64,000 bases of DNA, taken from assembly GCA_034933285.1 (NCBI GenBank), contig JAYFNT010000030.1, forward strand, positions 196 through 64,195, read 5' to 3'. Every line of letters begins with the position of its first letter. Position 1 is the stretch's first letter. Source of the DNA: Geobacteraceae bacterium (GTDB lineage Bacteria > Desulfobacterota > Desulfuromonadia > Geobacterales > Geobacteraceae). Both the position numbers and the translations under genes were made by a program. Of this stretch, positions 51,281 to 59,333 are shown in pieces. Under the pieces are notes generated by a model that ran no database searches, was not told the DNA's origin, and worked only from the letters and a program-made list of their open reading frames with translations.

Positions 51281-51720
51281 AGAGACCTCCCGAGTTGAGC
51301 ACATCAGACTTGCATGTTTGATGCATTCGAAAAAGTCGTCTCCCCGTTGCAAAACGGGGTCCAGTGATCTTAGATCTGATTGAAAAGACTGGATTCCGGC
51401 TTTCGCCGGAATGACGATAGAATGTTTTATGTCCTTTTTGCGATAGCATCACATTTTCTCAGTATACCAGGCGAATGGCCGATCTGAAGTGCCTCCTGCG
51501 GGGTTGTGCGCCTCCGCCGTGTCTTAATTGAAAAAAATTAAATGGTATTGAGGGTTTGGATCTGGTACAAAATGAACATTCCTTTAGTGTAAGAAAGATT
51601 ATTAGCAAGACCGTTGTATGGATGCCTGCAAAACGCCATATTGCCGCAGTTTGACGTGATTTGTTGAGGGCTCGTGATGGACGAGTACGACGAACAGATA
51701 ACTGATTGCGCACGATAACT

Positions 51721-51765
51721 GAAGCCGCCAATACCGGAATATTCCGGAGGCGGCTTTTTCTTTTG
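51721..51765 (+). terminator. intrinsic terminator with no annotated upstream gene
   Basis: AAGCCGCC-AATACCGGAATATTCCGGA-GGCGGCTT followed by TTTCTTTT. Only 13-codon ORFs lie upstream on this strand. Confidence 0.6.
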
Positions 51766-51957
51766 CCGGTATTCGTTCTTATAGATTCCCCCTGGATGAT
51801 GAAAATGGCTCTTCGGGGATGTCGTTGATTTATTGCAATAATCTTACAAGAGGTTGGGAACGCACTAAAGCAAGAATGTTCTTGAAGGGGTCCACCCTAG
51901 GGGTACCCTCGCGGGGGACTTCGACTGTCGCATAACTGATTCCAAAGGAGATGCCAT

Positions 51958-53100
51958 ATGCCAGACGACCTTACACCACTGAGAGAGCCTGCATTCGCTT
52001 CGGCTCTGAATGATTTAGACGACCTCTTGATGCAGAGCGGAAAGGCATTCCTACTCGGTGCCGGATGCAGTAAATGCGCAGGCCTCCCATTGACCGCAGA
52101 ACTCACGGTCAAAACCCTCGCTAGTGCGCACTTGGATGCGACAACGAAAACAATTTTAACTGCAATTGAAGGGCTGTTTGCAGGCGCAAAGGCTGCAAAC
52201 ATAGAGGACTACCTGAGCGAATTGGTTGATTTGGTCGCAATAGCCGAACGTCGTGGCGCTCGCGGCGCCACAACAAGCACAGCCACACTCAACGGTGTCG
52301 ATTATTCCGCAATACAGCTTAAAGATGCGGTTGACCAAATCAAAGTGGCGATAGCAGAGGTGATTGATATCGCAGTTAATCTGGAAGTTCATTGGAAGTT
52401 CATCCAAGCGGTGCATAGGCCTGCACGGCCCGGTAGATCCGTTGCTACTCGGCCAGTAGATTATCTTGTGCTGAACTACGACACATTGATCGAAAGCGCG
52501 CTTGCTCTTCAAAAGCTGCGTTATGCCGATGGAATGAACGGTGGTAATAGTGCGTGGTGGGATACAACAACATTCGAGACGGATGGACTTGCTGCGCGCG
52601 TCCTAAAGCTACACGGGTCGATTGATTGGAGTGAAATATCGGGTGACCCATTGCCTCGGAGAATTGCGAAAAGCCTCACGCTGCCGACGGGGAACGACCG
52701 AAAGGTTCTCATTTGGCCTGCCTCGACGAAATATCGAGAAACTCAACGAGACCCGTATGCTCAGTTATCAAGCCTTGCTCGCCGCATTCTTCGACCACAA
52801 TCCAGCAGTCAAACTGTACTGACCGTCTGCGGATACAGCTTCAGCGACTCTCACATCAACATTGAAGTTGAAAGAGCTCTGCGCGAGTCTGGAGGGGAAT
52901 TGACAGTTGTGGTGTTCACGTTCGACGAGGTACCGGTTGGCGAACTGAGGCGGTTACATGAGGACAAGGAAATCACAGACCAAGTGAGAATCTATGCTCG
53001 CAGAGGATTCTTCCACGGGAGCACTGCAGCGAAGTCGGCCAAGGACCTGCCATGGTCGAAATTTGAAAATATAACCAGATTGCTTGGAGGAGAACGATGA
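51958..53100 (+). CDS. SIR2-like (SIR2_2 family) protein, NADase component of a SIR2-HerA defence pair
   Basis: 380 aa. FLLGAGCSKCAGLP (Rossmann GAG loop), VLNYDTLIESAL and LKLHGSIDW. RBS AAAGGAGA. The stop overlaps the HerA start (ATGA). Confidence 0.8.
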   Translation: MPDDLTPLREPAFASALNDLDDLLMQSGKAFLLGAGCSKCAGLPLTAELTVKTLASAHLDATTKTILTAIEGLFAGAKAANIEDYLSELVDLVAIAERRGARGATTSTATLNGVDYSAIQLKDAVDQIKVAIAEVIDIAVNLEVHWKFIQAVHRPARPGRSVATRPVDYLVLNYDTLIESALALQKLRYADGMNGGNSAWWDTTTFETDGLAARVLKLHGSIDWSEISGDPLPRRIAKSLTLPTGNDRKVLIWPASTKYRETQRDPYAQLSSLARRILRPQSSSQTVLTVCGYSFSDSHINIEVERALRESGGELTVVVFTFDEVPVGELRRLHEDKEITDQVRIYARRGFFHGSTAAKSAKDLPWSKFENITRLLGGER

Positions 53101-54794
53101 AACACAACCCTAATGCTCCTGTCGAGAATCTAGCAATTGGGACAATTATTGAGGTTGACGGCTCTCACATTGTGGCCGAACTGAAGCCGGGGATCACTGA
53201 GCTGTCGCGTATCTTTGGTGGCGATACTTATCCCATAGGTCAGTTTGGGTCTATCTTAAAGATCCATTTCGGCCGGAAGATCATCTTTGCGTTTGTCGGA
53301 CGCCTCCGCATGAAGGCGGAATATGAATTGGAGCACGGCATTGTACCGCAGGCAGCGAGCGACGAGCGCGTGATTGAAGCAGATCTATTTGGCGAGGGTG
53401 AATGGCTCAGCGATACATCAGGCACCCCGGTTCGTTGGGATCTCAAATTCGATCGTGGTGTTGCAACCTACCCCCTCCCCCAGCAAACGGTATACCTTAC
53501 ACCCAAACGGGAACTTCGATACATCTATGGTCATGGGAAAGGCTCTTCCGTCCACCTCGGCGAACACGTCGGAACCGGAGGGACTAAGTGTTATGCCGAA
53601 ATGAATGAACTGCTTGGAAAACACACTGCTATTCTGGGCTCAACTGGAGCGGGAAAGTCAGGAACTGTTGCAGCTGTTCTTCACAGTCTCCTCGAGAGGG
53701 GCGCTGAAGCAAGTTTGGCCAATTGGAAACCACGCATTGTCGTGCTCGATCCGCATAACGAGTATTCAGCTGCATTCCCAGGCCATCAGAAACTTTCGAC
53801 GGACGATGGCTCGTTGTTCTTGCCCTATTGGCTTTTGAATTTCACCGAAACGATAGCATTGGTAATTGGAAAGACCGAATTCGTCGCAACATCTCAAGCC
53901 AATATTGTTAAAACAGCGTTACTTAAGGCCAGAATAGAGGGCGCAACGATACTCGGACTGACTGCTTCAAAAATTACAGTGGATTCTCCCGTGCCTTACA
54001 AGTTAGCGACGTTCATCGCCGCCGTTGAAGCCGACAAACCACCGCAGGCCAGCAAGCAGGACTCGCACAACTCAATTTTAGAGAAGCTCGATGTTTTGAT
54101 TCGTGATGCGCGCGTTGCTTTTATGATGAAGGAGTGGGACGGAGTCGCTCAAGATCCGTTTCCGGCAATATTGTCCCAACTTGTAAGTGATGGGGCTCAG
54201 CCGAGGATCGTCGATCTTTCCGGAGTTCCAAACGAGGTCGCAGGTGTTTCAAGTGCGGTAATCGCGAGGGCCCTCTTTAATTTGAAAGTTTGGCAGACTG
54301 CAGACGAGCGCCAAAATGATCCGGTTTTGCTCGTTTGTGAAGAAGCCCACCGATATGTTCCAAATCGCGGTGAGGCTCAATACGAAGCCGCTCAAGAAGC
54401 GATTCGAAGGATTGCAAAGGAAGGGCGGAAATATGGTATTGGACTTCTGTTGGTCTCTCAGAGACCAAGTGAGATCGAGGCGACGGTGCTATCGCAGTGT
54501 AATAGTTGGATCATTCTCCGAATTACAAATGACGCAGATCGTGAGCATGTCCGGGCAATTCTTCCCGATTCGATGTCGGGTCTAACAAAAATGCTTTCGA
54601 GTTTACGGCGGCAAGAAGCTATTTTTGTTGGCCAAGCGGCAGCCCTGCCTTCGAGAATTCTCATTCGCTCCCTCACGCCAGAGCAATTACCTCGGTCGAA
54701 CGACATCGACTTCGATAAAGGTTGGCAGGTTGCGGCCATGACGGAGGCACAACTCGCAGCCATAGCGAACAAATGGCGTTATCAGACAAAGTGA
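53097..54794 (+). CDS. HerA-like (DUF87) hexameric ATPase/translocase, partner of SIR2
   Basis: 565 aa. N-terminal HAS-barrel-like region, Walker A GSTGAGKSGT, Walker B LLVCEEAHRYVP and KYGIGLLLVSQRPSEI. Confidence 0.85.
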   Translation: MKHNPNAPVENLAIGTIIEVDGSHIVAELKPGITELSRIFGGDTYPIGQFGSILKIHFGRKIIFAFVGRLRMKAEYELEHGIVPQAASDERVIEADLFGEGEWLSDTSGTPVRWDLKFDRGVATYPLPQQTVYLTPKRELRYIYGHGKGSSVHLGEHVGTGGTKCYAEMNELLGKHTAILGSTGAGKSGTVAAVLHSLLERGAEASLANWKPRIVVLDPHNEYSAAFPGHQKLSTDDGSLFLPYWLLNFTETIALVIGKTEFVATSQANIVKTALLKARIEGATILGLTASKITVDSPVPYKLATFIAAVEADKPPQASKQDSHNSILEKLDVLIRDARVAFMMKEWDGVAQDPFPAILSQLVSDGAQPRIVDLSGVPNEVAGVSSAVIARALFNLKVWQTADERQNDPVLLVCEEAHRYVPNRGEAQYEAAQEAIRRIAKEGRKYGIGLLLVSQRPSEIEATVLSQCNSWIILRITNDADREHVRAILPDSMSGLTKMLSSLRRQEAIFVGQAAALPSRILIRSLTPEQLPRSNDIDFDKGWQVAAMTEAQLAAIANKWRYQTK

Positions 54795-54920
54795 GCCACA
54801 AAGGTTTCATCATTTTGGCATTTGGCCTCCTGCTGGCCCATTGAAGGGGTAGTCCATCGGGTCAGGCTTTGAAGATTTGAACTTTTGGCAAAATGAAGTT
54901 TTTGGTGGTGAAATATTTTA

Positions 54921-55001
54921 TGTCATGAGGGTGTCATGTCATGAGGGTGTCAGGTCTCCACCCATGACATTGTCACAGGTGGAGACCTGACATCATTAGA
55001 C
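54921..55001. repeat. GTCAGGTCT-family hairpin repeat with a tandem 16-nt duplication
   Basis: TGTCATGAGGGTGTCA occurs twice (54921-54952), then 15-bp perfect arms TGTCAGGTCTCCACC / GGTGGAGACCTGACA (54948-54962 / 54978-54992). The flanks match the copy at 1055-1094. Confidence 0.9.
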
Positions 55002-55150
55002 CGTAAAAAACGGTATTGTGTCACCGGAAATTCACAGGAAGAAAGCAAAATTAAGAAAAAGCGCCAGGTGCCAGCCAACCAACGGAGACAGACGGGCAAG
55101 CCTCTGCGACTGGAAGCGTTAAATGCTGGAATTACAGAGAGGAGAGAGCA

Positions 55151-55495
55151 ATGAGCAACGAACTGGTGGCACCTGAGACCAAAGGTGTTACGGTGAAGGT
55201 ACTTGCAACTGTTGACCTGGGCCCTGAGATCGAGGGCATGGCAGGGCGCCAACTTCGAATGCGCAAGGTGACCATCGAGCCTGGGGGCGTCTACGGCCCG
55301 ATTCACGACCATAAAGACAGGCCAGGCGTTGTTTACATACTGCAAGGAACGATCACTGACCATAGAAATGGAGTCGCTACGGACTATGGGCCGGGAGTGG
55401 GCTGGCCCGAGGATAGGAACACCACTCACTGGCTTGAGAACAGAGGAACGATTCCGGCGGTGGAGATCTCGGTCGATATAGTCAGGCAAGAGTAA
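55151..55495 (+). CDS. small cupin-domain protein
   Basis: 114 aa. Cupin motifs G...GP.HDH and ...THWLEN.G. GAGAGGAGAG RBS. Confidence 0.7.
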   Translation: MSNELVAPETKGVTVKVLATVDLGPEIEGMAGRQLRMRKVTIEPGGVYGPIHDHKDRPGVVYILQGTITDHRNGVATDYGPGVGWPEDRNTTHWLENRGTIPAVEISVDIVRQE

Positions 55496-55647
55496 GCTCA
55501 GGCCCGACATCTAAGACGGTCGGAAAACAGGGATACTTCCCTATTTTGTTATTGATAAATGCAGCCAGGGGGAAGGTTACCGGTGCGCCTCACAACGTTG
55601 TCCGCAAAAAAGAGAAGATAGATTTATTGGATTTTGAGGAATCTCAA

Positions 55648-56730
55648 ATGATATCTGCATCTGAAAAATTGAATCAATTTGGATGGAATGAATGGTTTGA
55701 TGCAAAGGCACAGGAAATAATCTTGGCAGGACACCGTCTTGCTCGTGTTGTTGCAGTGGATCGTGAACAACTTCTTGTAATAGATGAAGCTGGTGAATAT
55801 CGCGCAAAGCTTGCCGGCCGTTTTCTCTATACAACTGAGCGACCGAGTGATTTCCCTTGTGTTGGAGACTGGGTATCCGTTCAATACGGAGGCTCTGACG
55901 ATTTCGGAATAATTCATGACGTCGTGCCGAGAAAGTCGTTTCTTCGGCGCAAGGCTGCAGGAGATACCGTTGAATACCAGATGATCGCGTCGAATATTGA
56001 CGTGGCGTTAATTGTCCAGTCCTGTCAGTTCGACTTCAATGTTAACAGGCTTGAGCGTTACCTGGTTATGGTGAGAAATGGGCAAGTAGACCCGGTCATT
56101 TTGATCACAAAAACCGACCTGGTCAGTCCCGAAGCGCTCCAAGAACTAATTGATGAAATTAGAAATGCCGGAATAACTACGGAGGTAATCTCGCTTAGCA
56201 ATATCACCGGAGAAGGGGTGAACAATGTGCGCGAAATATTGCAATCCGGGAAAACCTACAGTCTTTTAGGTTCATCAGGGGTTGGCAAAAGCACTTTAAT
56301 AAACCAGCTGATCGGCCGTCAAATGCTAGAGACCAAAATGGTGAGTGGTACTGGAGAAGGACGACATACGACGGTGCGACGCGAACTCATACTATTGAGC
56401 AATGGTGCAATGCTGATTGATAACCCCGGAATGCGTGAGTTCGGCATTATGGGAGCTGAGGAAGGGATGGGCGACAGCTTTGCTGATATCTACAAGTTGG
56501 CATCGAAATGCAAATATCGAGATTGCTCTCACTTGAAGGAAAAAGGTTGCGCTGTTTTGCGCGCAGTTGAGGAAGGAACCCTCCATCGGGCACGCTATCA
56601 GAGCTTTATCAAATTAAGGACTGAATCGGAGTTTCATGACCTGTCGTATCTTGAAAAGCGGAACAAAGATAAGGCATTTGGTCGTTACCTTAAGTCTGTC
56701 AAAAAAGACCTGGGAATCAACCGTAAATAA
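55648..56730 (+). CDS. rsgA: ribosome small-subunit-dependent GTPase A, low-GC copy
   Basis: OB-fold N-terminus, circularly permuted GTPase (TKTD, GSSGVGKSTL, DNPG) and a C-terminal zinc knuckle CKYRDCSHLKEKGC. GC is visibly lower (about 45% by eye) than in core genes. Confidence 0.85.
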   Translation: MISASEKLNQFGWNEWFDAKAQEIILAGHRLARVVAVDREQLLVIDEAGEYRAKLAGRFLYTTERPSDFPCVGDWVSVQYGGSDDFGIIHDVVPRKSFLRRKAAGDTVEYQMIASNIDVALIVQSCQFDFNVNRLERYLVMVRNGQVDPVILITKTDLVSPEALQELIDEIRNAGITTEVISLSNITGEGVNNVREILQSGKTYSLLGSSGVGKSTLINQLIGRQMLETKMVSGTGEGRHTTVRRELILLSNGAMLIDNPGMREFGIMGAEEGMGDSFADIYKLASKCKYRDCSHLKEKGCAVLRAVEEGTLHRARYQSFIKLRTESEFHDLSYLEKRNKDKAFGRYLKSVKKDLGINRK

Positions 56731-56747
56731 TTAGGAAGTGAAGGGGG

Positions 56748-57548
56748 TCATGTCCCCTTGTAATAGCGCAATGCCTCTGGGACCAACCGCCTGATGTTGT
56801 CGATTCGATCCGAATCCGAGGGATGGGTGCTGAGGAACGGCGGGGGCGACTGCCCGTTTTTCTGTGCTGACATCCGCTGCCAAAAGGTTACGGCTTCGTT
56901 CGGATCATAGCCAGCCATGGCCATGAAGATCAGACCCAGGTGATCGGCCTCGTTCTCCTGCAGGCGGTTGTATGGCATGATGGCGCCATACTGCGCACCG
57001 ACCCCGTAAGCCGCCATCCAGAGCTGCTGTGCCGCGGCCGGTTGAGATGACAGCGCTTCTGCCAGTGCTATGCCCCCGAATTGTGCCAGAAGCCCCTGGC
57101 TCATCCGCTCGTTGCCGTGCTCCGCCACTGCATGCGCGATCTCGTGGCCCATCACTACCGCGAGGCCTGCCTCACCTTTAGCCACTGGCAGAATACCGGT
57201 GTAAACGACAACCTTGCCACCGGGCATGCACCAGGCGTTGACCTCCTTGTCCTCCACCAGGTTGAACTCCCATTGATAACCCGACAAGCGACTGCTCATG
57301 CCGACGGAGGCGAAATAGCGTGCGACTGCATCCTGTATCCTCGCGCCGACACGCTTTACCATGTCGGTCTGCTTCTTGTCGCTGCTGACCTTGTGTCCCT
57401 TGAGGAAAGTGTCGTACTCCTGCAAACTCATTGATATCATGGAGTCCCCGGGTATCAGGTTCAGTTGGGACCGGCCGGTTATCGGTACCGTAGTGCAAGA
57501 AGCCAACGCAAACATGGCACAAGCCGTGAAGAAATAGCGTTTGACCAT
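56748..57548 (-). CDS. M48-family zinc metallopeptidase lipoprotein
   Basis: Lipobox ALASC, HEIAHAVAEH (HExxH) and a distal E in NEADHLG. AGGAGG RBS. It is preceded by a leader of about 320 nt. Confidence 0.85.
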   Translation of the reverse strand: MVKRYFFTACAMFALASCTTVPITGRSQLNLIPGDSMISMSLQEYDTFLKGHKVSSDKKQTDMVKRVGARIQDAVARYFASVGMSSRLSGYQWEFNLVEDKEVNAWCMPGGKVVVYTGILPVAKGEAGLAVVMGHEIAHAVAEHGNERMSQGLLAQFGGIALAEALSSQPAAAQQLWMAAYGVGAQYGAIMPYNRLQENEADHLGLIFMAMAGYDPNEAVTFWQRMSAQKNGQSPPPFLSTHPSDSDRIDNIRRLVPEALRYYKGT

Positions 57549-57875
57549 AAGTGATGACCTCCTGAATCATAATGAATAATTTTGAGCCCATCCGGAAAAT
57601 CTCCCAGAAGCCGGAGCGGAACATCACGGGAGCTCGTGATAATCTGTCGACTCATGACTCACTGGTCGGGGCTTTCACTGGTTTCAAGCGCTTTCCCAGT
57701 TTTCGAGGTCTTGCACTTAAGCCGTATCACGATCTCCTCGAAAGACCAGCTCCTGCCTTCAATAGCCGTTACCAGGGTTTCCGGAGGGAAACTGCTTGGA
57801 TCCCGCAAAGCCACAGGCAACAGTTTAACACACTTTCCCGCTCATTTCTGAAAAGACCAAATGTGCAGGAATTTC

Positions 57876-57913
57876 GGGGATAGTTTATATAATTCGGTAG
57901 AGATAAATATACT
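57876..57913. repeat. 38-nt conserved motif, copy 2 (GGGGATAGTTTATATAATTCGGTAGAGATAAATATACT)
   Basis: See copy 1. It lies upstream, in minus-strand sense, of the M48 peptidase leader. Confidence 0.8.
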
Positions 57914-58139
57914 GGTTGAATGCATAAGAAGGGATTGAAGAGGAAGCCTCCGGTTGGTATTGATAGCTTGTATGGGCAAGCTGTCGGACCGGCACAGCCG
58001 TCCGGGATCACCAGTTTAAGTTCAGTTCAAAATTAAATCGTCAAGGTGTCCCCCGAAAAACCGACACTACCATGCAGTTCCGTGCAATTTCTGACCCCTT
58101 TGCAGTTCTGGGCCCGTACGGCTGGACAGATCGTTTTTT

Positions 58140-58183
58140 ACCTTGAAAATCCTGCTTGACATGCGGGATTTTCAAGGTAATAT
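58140..58183 (+). promoter_or_regulatory. sigma70-type promoter embedded in a 13-bp perfect inverted repeat (operator candidate)
   Basis: TTGACA (58156-58161)-N16-TAATAT (58178-58183). ACCTTGAAAATCC (58140-58152) and GGATTTTCAAGGT (58166-58178) bracket the -35 box. Confidence 0.6.
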
Positions 58184-58190
58184 GTTGGCC

Positions 58191-59333
58191 ATGATCCAGA
58201 GACCCACCCTTATCTCCGCTATCCGCACGGCTCTCGACCGAAGCCGCATCGTGGCGCTTCTAGGGCCGCGTCAGTGCGGGAAAACAACCCTGGCGCGCCA
58301 GTTCGTCAACCCGGATTCACTCAATTATTTCGACCTGGAAGATCCGCTGAGTCTTGCCCGGCTCGATGAGCCGATGACGGCACTCGGAGCGCTGAACGGG
58401 CTCGTGGTGATCGATGAAGTGCAACGGCGGCCCGAGCTGTTTACGGTATTGCGCGTACTGGCCGACCGGGACCCGCTTCCGGCGCGGTTCCTGATCCTGG
58501 GGAGCGCATCACCGTCTCTATTGCGGCAATCGTCCGAATCTCTCGCCGGCAGGCTGGAAACCGTTACCATCGGTGGATTCAGCCTCGGTGAGGTGGGGAC
58601 GGCGGCATGTGAACGACACTGGCTGCGTGGCGGGTTCCCCCTTTCTTTCCTGGGGGCCGCTGATTCAGACAGCCTGGCCTGGCGCAGGAATTTCATCCAG
58701 ACATTCCTGGAGCGTGACATGCCGCAATTCGGCATCACTACTCCCGCACCTACGCTCCTCAGATTCTGGACCATGTTGGCCCACTACCACGGCCAGATCT
58801 GGAATGCCGCCGAGCCCGCCCGTTCCCTCGGGGTGAACGAATCGACCACCCGCCGCTATCTCGACCTCATGGAGGGTGTGTTCATGGTACGGCAGCTTCA
58901 GCCCTGGCATGCCAACCTGAAAAAGCGGCAGATCAAATCTCCCAAGATCTACTTCCGCGACAGCGGGCTCCTCCACCAGCTGCTCGGTATCCGTACCATG
59001 GACGACCTTCTGCGCCACCCGAAGAGCGGCGCTTCATGGGAGGGATATGTCATCGAGGAAATCATCAAGCTGTCGGCGCCGGACGAGGTCTATTTCTGGG
59101 GGACTCACGGCGGAGCGGAACTGGATCTTCTTCTGATCAGTGATGGCCACCGTTTCGGCGTGGAGGTCAAGAGGATGGATGCGCCGAAGCTCACCCCGTC
59201 CATGCGGAACGCCCTGGAGGACCTGGAGCTCGACAGGCTCAAGGTGTTGTATCCCGGGAACAGGCGTTACCGCCTGGCTGAGCAGGTCGAGGTTATTCCC
59301 ATGGTGAATTTGGAAGAAGCAATGACAATGTAA
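58191..59333 (+). CDS. AAA+ ATPase with DUF4143-type C-terminal domain
   Basis: Walker A GPRQCGKTT, Walker B VVIDEVQ, and a C-terminal part typical of the AAA_14/DUF4143 family. ATG 58191 lies about 8 nt after the -10 box, so the transcript may be leaderless. ATG 58182 and TTG 58143 are alternatives. Confidence 0.8.
   Translation: MIQRPTLISAIRTALDRSRIVALLGPRQCGKTTLARQFVNPDSLNYFDLEDPLSLARLDEPMTALGALNGLVVIDEVQRRPELFTVLRVLADRDPLPARFLILGSASPSLLRQSSESLAGRLETVTIGGFSLGEVGTAACERHWLRGGFPLSFLGAADSDSLAWRRNFIQTFLERDMPQFGITTPAPTLLRFWTMLAHYHGQIWNAAEPARSLGVNESTTRRYLDLMEGVFMVRQLQPWHANLKKRQIKSPKIYFRDSGLLHQLLGIRTMDDLLRHPKSGASWEGYVIEEIIKLSAPDEVYFWGTHGGAELDLLLISDGHRFGVEVKRMDAPKLTPSMRNALEDLELDRLKVLYPGNRRYRLAEQVEVIPMVNLEEAMTM

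What the first reader, a model, noticed from the sequence alone, without database searches (positions are those of the whole stretch)
51958..54794. SIR2-HerA two-gene anti-phage system at the start of the accessory island
A 380-aa SIR2_2-type protein (GAGxS loop, NYD, KLHGS) is ATGA-coupled to a 565-aa HerA/DUF87 ATPase (Walker A GSTGAGKS, Walker B LLVCEEAH). This matches the architecture of the described SIR2-HerA NAD+-depleting defence system. The family is known, so this is not novel in itself. It marks the region as a defence or competition island and makes the unexplained neighbours worth testing (cupin, low-GC RsgA, DUF4143 ATPase, SHOCT protein). Its GC is intermediate, between the core and the RHS tip.
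Basis: partly seen in the sequence, partly recalled or inferred. Interest (0 to 1): 0.6.

Follow-up and report, generated by a model that had tools for sequence, protein, structure and literature searches.

The report
Ordinary SIR2-HerA anti-phage gene pair
Two overlapping genes in a Geobacter genome are an intact copy of the known SIR2-HerA anti-virus system, which kills the infected cell by destroying NAD+; it is an ordinary new member that arrived alone as a 2.9-kb cassette normally found inside restriction-enzyme operons.

Summary
A 380-aa SIR2_2 protein (51958-53100) and a 565-aa HerA/DUF87 ATPase (53097-54794) overlap by ATGA, and every quoted motif is present.

Both proteins match PADLOC's SIR2 and HerA models over their full length (2e-63 and 5e-129). 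The putative catalytic residues N173, D175 and H219 are invariant in 50 relatives. The predicted SIR2 fold is closest to SIR2 subunits of solved SIR2-HerA complexes. It is a divergent clade of a known system, so it counts as a new member of a known kind.

What I add:
- The pair is a self-contained cassette. DNA similarity to 89 other copies never runs beyond 51911-54801.
- In about 70% of copies it sits directly behind hsdS of a type I restriction operon. Here only a decayed ~30-nt hsdS tail may remain.
- It is absent from 19 other species of the genus. In the two closest Geobacter genomes the neighbourhood of this slot holds other defence genes.
- rsgA and the DUF4143 ATPase are conserved in the sister genomes and were not co-acquired, so the "island" is a mosaic.
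- HerA residues 271-360 are hypervariable and may be a specificity region (speculative).

This scan has already noted SIR2-HerA nested in type I restriction operons on other DNA.

The parts
51882..51891 (+). Left copy of the 10-bp direct repeat TTGAAGGGGT. Similarity to sister genome G007 ends inside it, at 51889.
   Evidence: This 10-mer occurs only twice in the 64-kb window (expected 0.13) and the two copies bracket the cassette. The G007 junction was read.
51911..51939 (+). Possible decayed relic of the 3' end of a type I hsdS gene (last ~9 codons plus TGA), carried in with the cassette.
   Evidence: DNA similarity to other cassette copies starts at 51911. The aligned stretch in L001 encodes the intact HsdS end ...LLPKLLSGELRPTQN* and 22 of 29 nt are identical. 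At protein level the relic is not distinguishable from chance here (4 of 15).
51958..53100 (+). SIR2_2-family predicted NADase effector, 380 aa. NAD-binding loop GAGCS 34-38; putative catalytic N173, D175, H219.
   Evidence: PADLOC SIR2 PDLC04088 2.1e-63 over the full length. Pfam SIR2_2. Aligns to PsSIR2 N163/D165/H212 (PMC11472057). These residues are invariant in 50 relatives. AF2 pLDDT 93, and the top 39 Foldseek hits are SIR2 chains of SIR2-HerA entries.
53097..54794 (+). HerA/DUF87 hexameric ATPase partner, 565 aa. Walker A GSTGAGKS 181-188, Walker B LLVCEEAH 411-418. It has no C-terminal arm domain.
   Evidence: PADLOC HerA PDLC04105 4.6e-129 over the full length. Pfam DUF87. PDB 8wiv (Paenibacillus HerA) 7e-65, with residues 13-545 aligned to 13-586 of 696.
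53907..54176 (+). Hypervariable block of HerA (aa 271-360) in the alpha-helix-bundle domain. It comes in two allele classes.
   Evidence: Column entropy is 1.1-1.7 here against 0.1-0.5 in the RecA core across 85 sequences. Identity is 35-55% to L002, L021 and L022 in this block but above 85% elsewhere. dN is 0.5-0.6 here against ~0.1 in the flanking parts.
54841..54850 (+). Right copy of the 10-bp direct repeat TTGAAGGGGT, 47 nt after the HerA stop.

Best explanation
The two genes are an intact SIR2-HerA abortive-infection defence system of a divergent, short-HerA clade. By analogy with the solved Paenibacillus, E. coli (Nezha) and S. aureus systems, the expected mechanism runs as follows. HerA forms a hexameric ATPase ring. 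A double ring of SIR2 (12-14 subunits) docks on its N-terminal beta-barrel face. Complex formation, together with a phage cue (phage SSB-type proteins, DNA ends or ATP decline in the studied systems), releases the SIR2 NADase. NAD+ is then destroyed, possibly with ATP hydrolysis and DNA nicking or cleavage, and the infected cell stops growing before phage progeny are made. Shown here: the gene identities, intact putative catalytic and Walker residues, the fold, obligate pairing, strong purifying selection, defence-type genomic company, and acquisition as a 2.9-kb two-gene cassette. Inferred: complex assembly, NADase activity, the trigger, and expression in this host. The cassette belongs to a lineage that normally lives between hsdS and hsdR of type I restriction operons. 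In this Geobacter it landed alone between the sorbosone-dehydrogenase-like gene and rsgA. In the two closest species the neighbourhood of that slot holds other defence genes.
For: Family identity:
- PADLOC SIR2 2.1e-63 and HerA 4.6e-129, both over the full length.
- Pfam SIR2_2 and DUF87.
- Best PDB sequence matches are the two subunits of the same solved SIR2-HerA complex (8w9l 4.8e-14; 8wiv 7e-65).
- N173/D175/H219 align with PsSIR2 N163/D165/H212 (PMC11472057) and are invariant in 50 relatives of 25-52% identity.
- AF2 model pLDDT 93, pTM 0.92. Foldseek ranks 1-39 are all SIR2 chains of SIR2-HerA entries (TM 0.6-0.78), while DSR2 and ThsA reach only ~0.49.

Pairing and selection:
- SIR2 is found upstream of HerA in 83 of 89 related loci, the rest lacking room; the ATGA overlap is seen in 36 of 38.
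- dN/dS is 0.05-0.08 for SIR2 and 0.02-0.07 for the HerA core, with dS of 0.6 up to saturation.

Defence context of relatives:
- Type I R-M operons in L002, L004, L021, L024 and Shewanella plasmid pS22302.
- Cas1-Cas2, DruA, GmrSD and HEPN neighbours in other copies.

Accessory status here:
- The HerA family is present in 1 of 20 genus genomes.
- There is no DNA match to the cassette in 30 relatives.
- Other defence genes lie after the same left junction in G007 and beside rsgA in G016.
Against: - There is no experimental data for this clade. Identity to any characterised SIR2 is only ~20-30%.
- NCBIfam's anti-phage equivalogs are hit far below their cut-offs (55 of 500 bits; 291 of 850 bits).
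- Expression in this host is unproven. In most relatives the pair is read through from hsdS, whereas here there is no upstream gene.
- An intrinsic-terminator-like hairpin lies ~190 nt upstream.
- The sigma-70 consensus scan found no + strand promoter before SIR2.
- HerA lacks the C-terminal arm domain that stabilises the Paenibacillus hexamer (PMC11472057).
Confidence: 0.85

Rival explanations
1. The cassette is intact but silent. It was torn out of its hsd operon, lost its promoter, and is a transcriptionally inert passenger in this Geobacter that will decay.
For: No sigma-70-like promoter was found upstream on the + strand. In 27 of 39 relatives hsdS ends within 150 nt of the SIR2 start (in the copies read, within about 20 nt), which implies co-transcription. 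Decayed copies exist elsewhere: HerA is broken in L023 and cut by Tn3 in Shewanella.
Against: Both frames are complete with all motifs and good ribosome-binding sites. The left flank up to 51889 is conserved with G007, where a different, co-oriented cargo follows, so the flank may supply an outward promoter. The simple consensus scan is not tuned to Geobacter promoters.
Confidence: 0.12
2. The pair is not autonomous. It works only together with a type I R-M complex, for example as a suicide back-up when restriction is blocked, as PrrC does with EcoprrI. It would then be non-functional, or differently regulated, when orphaned here.
For: There is a strong positional link to hsdS and hsdR: an hsdS tail in 27 of 39 copies and an hsdR head directly at the HerA stop in 17 of 80 copies. 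This holds even for a 52%-identical relative on a Shewanella plasmid. PrrC is the precedent for an hsd-embedded, Hsd-regulated effector (established knowledge; named as almost exclusively type I R-M-embedded in bioRxiv 10.1101/2024.01.29.577857).
Against: Characterised SIR2-HerA systems protect as two-gene clones without R-M genes (PMC11472057, PMC13434337). About 30% of copies of this clade, including L020, L022 and the window, have no hsd genes beside them yet keep intact frames. TgvAB, another type I R-M-embedded pair, works alone (bioRxiv 10.1101/2024.04.04.588119). An hsdR-like gene exists elsewhere in this genome on contig C3, so even this model would not force inactivity.
Confidence: 0.05
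3. This is a housekeeping HerA-type DNA-end-resection or DNA-translocation ATPase with a regulatory sirtuin, not a defence system.
For: HerA is homologous to the archaeal repair HerA (PDB 4d2i 1.7e-20; NCBIfam helicase_HerA 130 bits).
Against: There is no NurA partner. The repair equivalog is hit far below its cut-off (130 of 970 bits). The pair is absent from 19 of 20 genomes of the genus. The SIR2 is of the SIR2_2 defence type, not a deacetylase sirtuin. The genomic company of relatives is defence genes.
Confidence: 0.02

Closest known systems
SIR2-HerA of Paenibacillus sp. 453MF (PDB 8W9L, 8WIV, 8WLD; Liao et al. 2024, PMC11472057)
   Same: It is the best sequence and fold match for both subunits. 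It shares the two-gene operon, the SIR2 putative catalytic N/D/H, and a HerA with beta-barrel, RecA-like and helix-bundle domains. [quoted passage not shown]
   Different: SIR2 is only ~20-30% identical. The HerA here is 565 aa, not 696, and lacks the C-terminal arm domain (Ps residues 576-696). A ~50-residue stretch of the Ps helix bundle has no counterpart here.
E. coli Nezha / SIR2-HerA (PDB 8J4U, 8SU9, 8SUB, 8UAE) and E. coli types I-III (Zhang et al. 2026, PMC13434337)
   Same: The architecture and SIR2 fold are the same (TM ~0.65). It is an abortive-infection NAD+ depletion system gated by ATP, and phage SSB-type triggers are known for type III.
   Different: The HerA match is much weaker (2.3e-30 against 7e-65 for Paenibacillus). 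There is no DNA match in 5,426 E. coli genomes. Which E. coli type it resembles could not be tested, and the types differ from each other by 13-22% identity.
S. aureus Sir2-HerA (PDB 8YHX, 8YHO; Zhen et al. 2024, PMC11514289)
   Same: A short HerA of 562 aa. HerA binding allosterically opens the SIR2 active site.
   Different: It is distant: SIR2 1.5e-6 and HerA 1.1e-26.
DUF4297-HerA systems (PDB 9C1M, 8XAU, 8ZIQ)
   Same: Their HerA subunits are nearly as close to this HerA (~2e-60) as the Paenibacillus one.
   Different: The effector is a DUF4297 nuclease, not SIR2.
Defence genes embedded in type I R-M operons (PrrC; TgvAB, bioRxiv 10.1101/2024.04.04.588119; 'guilt-by-embedding', Payne et al. 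2024, bioRxiv 10.1101/2024.01.29.577857)
   Same: Most copies of this cassette lineage occupy the hsdS-hsdR slot.
   Different: The window's copy is outside any hsd operon. Only a decayed ~30-nt hsdS tail may remain.

Membership tests
SIR2-HerA anti-phage system (Gao 2020 / Nezha) | SIR2_2-type SIR2 protein with the NAD-binding loop and the Asn/Asp/His active-site residues | tested here: met
   Pfam SIR2_2 3.6e-12. GAGCS 34-38, N173, D175, H219. These align to PsSIR2 N163/D165/H212 and are invariant in 50 relatives.
SIR2-HerA anti-phage system (Gao 2020 / Nezha) | HerA/DUF87 ATPase with Walker A and B and an N-terminal beta-barrel | tested here: met
   DUF87 1.1e-27. Walker A 181-188 and Walker B 411-418. 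Residues 13-304 and 326-545 align to PsHerA, including its beta-barrel region 1-132.
SIR2-HerA anti-phage system (Gao 2020 / Nezha) | The two genes are adjacent and co-oriented, and the pairing is conserved | tested here: met
   4-nt ATGA overlap. SIR2 lies upstream of HerA in 83 of 89 related loci, and the same overlap is seen in 36 of 38.
SIR2-HerA anti-phage system (Gao 2020 / Nezha) | Match to curated defence-system profile models for both proteins | tested here: met
   PADLOC SIR2 PDLC04088 2.1e-63 (positions 10-384 of 390). PADLOC HerA PDLC04105 4.6e-129 (positions 9-573 of 576). DefenseFinder itself is not available here.
SIR2-HerA anti-phage system (Gao 2020 / Nezha) | SIR2 fold of the HerA-associated kind rather than ThsA, DSR or deacetylase sirtuins | tested here: met
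   AF2 pLDDT 93. Foldseek ranks 1-39 are all SIR2 chains of SIR2-HerA entries (TM 0.6-0.78). DSR2 and ThsA reach ~0.49.
SIR2-HerA anti-phage system (Gao 2020 / Nezha) | SIR2 12-14-mer plus HerA hexamer complex, NADase activity, NAD+ depletion and phage protection | not testable with these tools
   This needs protein biochemistry and phage challenge.
NCBIfam equivalogs SIR2_antiphage (NF042942) and HerA_antiphage_2 (NF042944) | Whole-protein score above the curated cut-off | tested here: not met
   55.2 bits against a 500 cut-off, and 291 bits against 850. This is a different clade from the ones those models were built on, so public annotation calls relatives only 'SIR2 family protein'.
Paenibacillus-type SIR2-HerA (long HerA) | C-terminal arm domain of HerA (Ps residues 576-696) | tested here: not met
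   HerA ends at residue 565. The alignment reaches Ps residue 586 of 696 (domain limits from PMC11472057).
E. coli Sir2-HerA types I-III (PMC13434337) | Sequence clustering with a type representative | not tested
   The representative sequences are not on hand. There is no DNA-level match in E. coli genomes.
Type I R-M-embedded defence cassette | Located between hsdS and hsdR of a type I operon | tested here: not met
   The neighbours are a GSDH-like gene, cupin and rsgA. The hsdS-tail score is 4 of 15 and the hsdR-head score 5 of 18, both at chance level. Only a DNA-level relic remains at 51911-51939. Most sister copies do meet the feature.
HerA-NurA DNA-repair module | NurA nuclease partner and a repair-type HerA | tested here: not met
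   The partner is SIR2. NCBIfam helicase_HerA scores 130.6 bits against a 970 cut-off.

The most novel reading that the evidence does not exclude
The 90-residue hypervariable block of HerA (aa 271-360, helix-bundle domain at the face of the ring away from SIR2) is the trigger-recognition module of this clade. It is exchanged by recombination between otherwise near-identical cassettes, which gives allele classes with different phage specificities. The conserved hsdS 3' end and hsdR 5' start would then serve as portable homology arms that let whole cassettes swap between type I operons across phyla.
Probability: 0.2. Interest if true: 0.5.

Novelty: new member of a known kind. Interest (0 to 1): 0.22.

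Why it matters
It matters mainly as annotation. Standard NCBI naming would leave this as 'SIR2 family protein' plus 'ATP-binding protein', whereas it is a complete NAD+-depleting defence system in an environmental Geobacter. The clade is abundant in metagenomes: more than 120 protein clusters at 80-95% identity, from MAGs named Acidobacteriaceae, Chromatiales, Hyphomicrobium, Paceibacterota and Geobacter. It is very strongly conserved and has never been tested, so a representative would be a reasonable choice for biochemical comparison with Nezha-type systems. The sharp cassette borders (hsdS tail, hsdR head) and the variable HerA block offer testable leads on how such modules move and how they might recognise phages. 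Nothing here challenges current understanding.

Tried and rejected
- Rfam over 51300-58200 at E<=0.1 found no RNA family. There is no tRNA in the window as an integration site.
- The promoter and terminator consensus scan gave nothing above shuffled expectation, and no + strand promoter before SIR2.
- I tested whether the region upstream of rsgA is a family-wide defence hotspot. Among 97 ORFs from 24 further Geobacteraceae loci only a handful hit PADLOC families, each once. The claim is therefore limited to the two closest genomes.
- I checked for a conserved third gene in the cassette. The small ORFs after HerA in L021 and L024 are duplicated hsdR N-termini, not a partner gene.
- The 186-aa minus-strand ORF 54950-55510 was rejected as spurious: no family hit and a low-complexity translation. 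The + strand cupin is the real gene.
- My first HerA dN/dS calculation was wrong because of an N-terminal indel offset. It was redone on a codon alignment.
- The protein-level test for an hsdS relic in the window is negative, so the relic rests on a short DNA alignment only.
- Phage and E. coli collections gave no close relatives.
Full report
**1. Observation**

The SIR2 stop and the HerA start overlap as ATGA, and each ATG is preceded by a good ribosome-binding site (AAGGAG; GGAGGAG). All quoted motifs are present:
- SIR2: GAGCS 34-38, NYD 173-175, KLHGS 217-221.
- HerA: GSTGAGKS 181-188, LLVCEEAH 411-418.

GC is 0.51 for both genes, against 0.57 for the first 50 kb and 0.37 next to the Rhs tip.

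**2. Identity**

Profile matches:
- PADLOC's defence models match both proteins end to end: SIR2 PDLC04088 at 2.1e-63 and HerA PDLC04105 at 4.6e-129.
- Pfam gives SIR2_2 and DUF87 above threshold.
- NCBIfam's anti-phage equivalogs are hit but far below their cut-offs (55 of 500 bits and 291 of 850 bits). This is therefore a different clade from those models, and public pipelines name relatives only 'SIR2 family protein'.

Solved structures:
- The best matches for the two proteins are the two subunits of one and the same complex, Paenibacillus sp. 453MF SIR2-HerA (8w9l at 4.8e-14; 8wiv at 7e-65).
- In that alignment N173, D175 and H219 fall on N163, D165 and H212, the putative catalytic residues named by Liao et al. 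(PMC11472057).
- A full-database HMMER search found 98 representative clusters at E<1e-30. In an alignment of 50 full-length relatives of 25-52% identity these three residues, and G36 of the NAD loop, are invariant.
- An AlphaFold2 model built on that alignment is confident (pLDDT 93, pTM 0.92).
- Its 39 best Foldseek hits in the PDB are all SIR2 chains of SIR2-HerA entries from Paenibacillus, S. aureus and E. coli (TM 0.6-0.78). Other defence sirtuins (DSR2, ThsA) reach only about 0.49.

HerA aligns to PsHerA from the beta-barrel through the RecA core, but it ends where the Paenibacillus C-terminal arm domain (576-696) begins. This is a short-HerA clade.

**3. The unit that moves**

I collected 89 other copies: 4 from genome contigs, 6 by exact-protein look-up (five of them are in the 89, and L023 was left out because its HerA is broken) and 80 from metagenome contigs.
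- Wherever there is room upstream of HerA there is a SIR2 gene (83 of 89). The ATGA overlap is kept in 36 of 38 copies.
- DNA similarity to the window never extends left of 51911 or right of 54801. The mobile unit is just the two genes plus 47 nt upstream and 7 nt downstream.
- SIR2 is under strong purifying selection (dN/dS 0.05-0.08), and so is the HerA core (0.02-0.07). Synonymous divergence runs from 0.6 to saturation. The wide spread, across MAGs named Acidobacteriaceae, Chromatiales, Hyphomicrobium, Paceibacterota and Geobacter, therefore reflects old and repeated transfer of a highly constrained protein pair rather than one recent sweep.
- Identity ranks differ between the two genes (for example L003: SIR2 82%, HerA 93%; L022: 90% and 81%). 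The cassettes are therefore mosaic.

**4. Usual habitat of the lineage**

- In L002, L004, L021 and L024 the pair sits between hsdS and hsdR of a type I R-M operon.
- The canonical HsdS C-terminus (LRDTLLPKLLSGELR) is found within 150 nt upstream of SIR2 in 27 of 39 copies. The threshold was at least 8 of 15 identical residues, and the maximum in 780 shuffles was 7.
- An HsdR N-terminus begins right at the HerA stop in 17 of 80 copies (19 of 80 have one within 1.7 kb downstream).
- Where other passengers have been inserted, duplicated hsdR heads or decayed hsdS tails are left behind.
- Even a 52%-identical relative on the conjugative Shewanella baltica plasmid pS22302 lies directly behind hsdS. 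Its HerA is cut off by a Tn3-family element.
- Embedding of defence genes in type I operons is a documented habit: TgvAB (bioRxiv 10.1101/2024.04.04.588119) and Payne et al. (bioRxiv 10.1101/2024.01.29.577857). Earlier notes of this scan describe the same nesting of SIR2-HerA on other DNA. This part is confirmation, not discovery.

**5. The window's copy**

- The host is a Geobacter. The rsgA neighbours carry record names such as Geobacter sp. GAC1 (= G007) and UBA5735 (= G016).
- No hsd gene flanks the pair.
- The first 29 nt of cassette similarity (51911-51939) align, 22 of 29 identical and without gaps, to the last codons and stop of the intact hsdS of L001. I read this as a decayed relic of the donor context. 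It is too short and too degraded to be significant at protein level.
- The cassette is bracketed by the only two copies in the window of the 10-mer TTGAAGGGGT, at 51882 and 54841 (expected 0.13 copies). My rough estimate of a chance pair landing at both junctions is about 0.2%. This suggests microhomology or a duplicated target but does not prove it.
- The HerA family is present in only 1 of 20 species genomes of the genus, and none of 30 relatives has DNA matching the cassette.
- In G007 the flank is 92-95% identical up to 51889. It then continues with a different, co-oriented cargo: two small ORFs, an HNH protein, an FRG-domain PDC-S15 candidate (8.7e-54) and an NsnA-like GmrSD_N protein (2.4e-26).
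- In G016 a Gabija GajB gene (1e-46) abuts rsgA.
- The slot between the sorbosone-dehydrogenase-like gene and rsgA, or its immediate neighbourhood, therefore carries defence cargo in the three closest genomes. This could not be generalised to 24 more distant Geobacteraceae.

**6. Neighbours**

- rsgA is a core gene (73-93% aa identity across Geobacteraceae) despite its low GC.
- The AAA_14/DUF4143 ATPase lies next to rsgA at 98% aa identity in G007 and G016. It matches the PADLOC candidate PDC-S01 (9e-87).
- The M48 peptidase segment is missing from that position in both sister genomes.

**7. Mechanism**

Shown here: two intact enzymes with conserved active sites, obligate pairing, and defence company in the genome.

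Inferred from the characterised systems (PMC11472057, PMC11514289, PMC13434337): HerA hexamerises and a SIR2 double ring docks on its beta-barrel face. Complex formation, together with a phage cue, unleashes the NADase. Depending on subtype this is accompanied by ATPase, helicase, nuclease or nickase activity, and the outcome is abortive infection.

The trigger for this clade is unknown. Expression in this host is also open:
- The usual hsdS read-through is gone.
- No consensus promoter was found.
- Read data could not be consulted.

**8. A lead**

HerA residues 271-360 map to the helix-bundle domain (Ps 228-396). They are the longest variable block in an otherwise very conserved protein: entropy is 1.1-1.7 against 0.1-0.5 in the RecA core across 85 sequences. 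The block occurs in at least two allele classes, which are 35-55% identical there but above 85% identical elsewhere. It may be a specificity surface. No published binding site exists to compare it with, so this remains speculation.

**9. Verdict**

The finding is real and correctly identified. It is an ordinary, untested member of a known family and is already covered by PADLOC models, so I score it of low interest.

Noticed in passing
window 54920-54992: A 16-nt unit (ATGTCATGAGGGTGTC) occurs twice in tandem and runs into a 22-nt near-perfect hairpin (54948-54992). The hairpin recurs at 92-98% identity in several related genomes (G001, G003, G010, G015, G028), so it looks like a REP- or MITE-like repeated element.
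   Followed up: partly
window 55151-55495 (+): The real gene between HerA and rsgA is a 114-aa Cupin_2 protein. The longer minus-strand ORF 54950-55510 is spurious. The cupin DNA recurs at ~90% identity in several families of the order and twice on one contig of G007, which is unusually conserved and multi-copy for a small gene.
   Followed up: partly
window 55522-55559: A 38-nt hairpin element (AAAACAGGGATACTTCCCTATTTTGTTATTGATAAAT) sits just upstream of rsgA. The same element ends the alternative defence cargo on G007 contig C11 and also precedes rsgA on G007 contig C18. It may be the right-hand landmark of the variable slot.
   Followed up: partly
window 57587-57793: A ~205-nt sequence in the long leader of the M48 peptidase gene recurs at 76-86% identity on at least six other contigs of this genome and in many copies in G006, G007 and others. 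It is a dispersed repeat. The Rfam search of 51300-58200 found no RNA family.
   Followed up: no
window 57913-58010: A ~97-nt element just upstream of the DUF4143 ATPase gene is present at 84-90% identity at one or two places in many genomes of the genus (G003, G004 twice, G010, G015, G017, G021). There is no Rfam match.
   Followed up: no
window 56760-58124: The M48 peptidase gene and its leader are absent from between rsgA and the DUF4143 ATPase in G007 and G016, where those two genes abut. In G007 the M48 gene lies on another contig (C1) at 92% identity. This is a local rearrangement or insertion.
   Followed up: partly
window 58143-59333: The AAA_14/DUF4143 ATPase matches the PADLOC phage-defence candidate PDC-S01 (9.3e-87). 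It is vertically conserved with rsgA in the sister genomes.
   Followed up: partly
L012 1857-3314 (G007 contig C18, next to rsgA): A 485-aa protein has a weak Sir2-family match (PF02146, 2.6e-4) and no PADLOC hit. It occupies the position next to rsgA in the sister genome and may be another NAD-related defence gene.
   Followed up: no
L003 upstream of SIR2; L023 8140-9200; L095 8145-9440: Three scars of cassette history. L003 has an HsdR helicase motif (HTTGSGKT) fused in frame to an HsdS tail. L023 has a broken HerA next to an intact SIR2. On the Shewanella plasmid HerA is truncated by a Tn3-family transposase.
   Followed up: partly
cassette copies L002, L003, L022 versus window: The SIR2 and HerA identity ranks disagree (L003: 82% and 93%; L022: 90% and 81%). 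This points to recombination between cassette variants near the gene junction and around HerA residues 271-360.
   Followed up: partly
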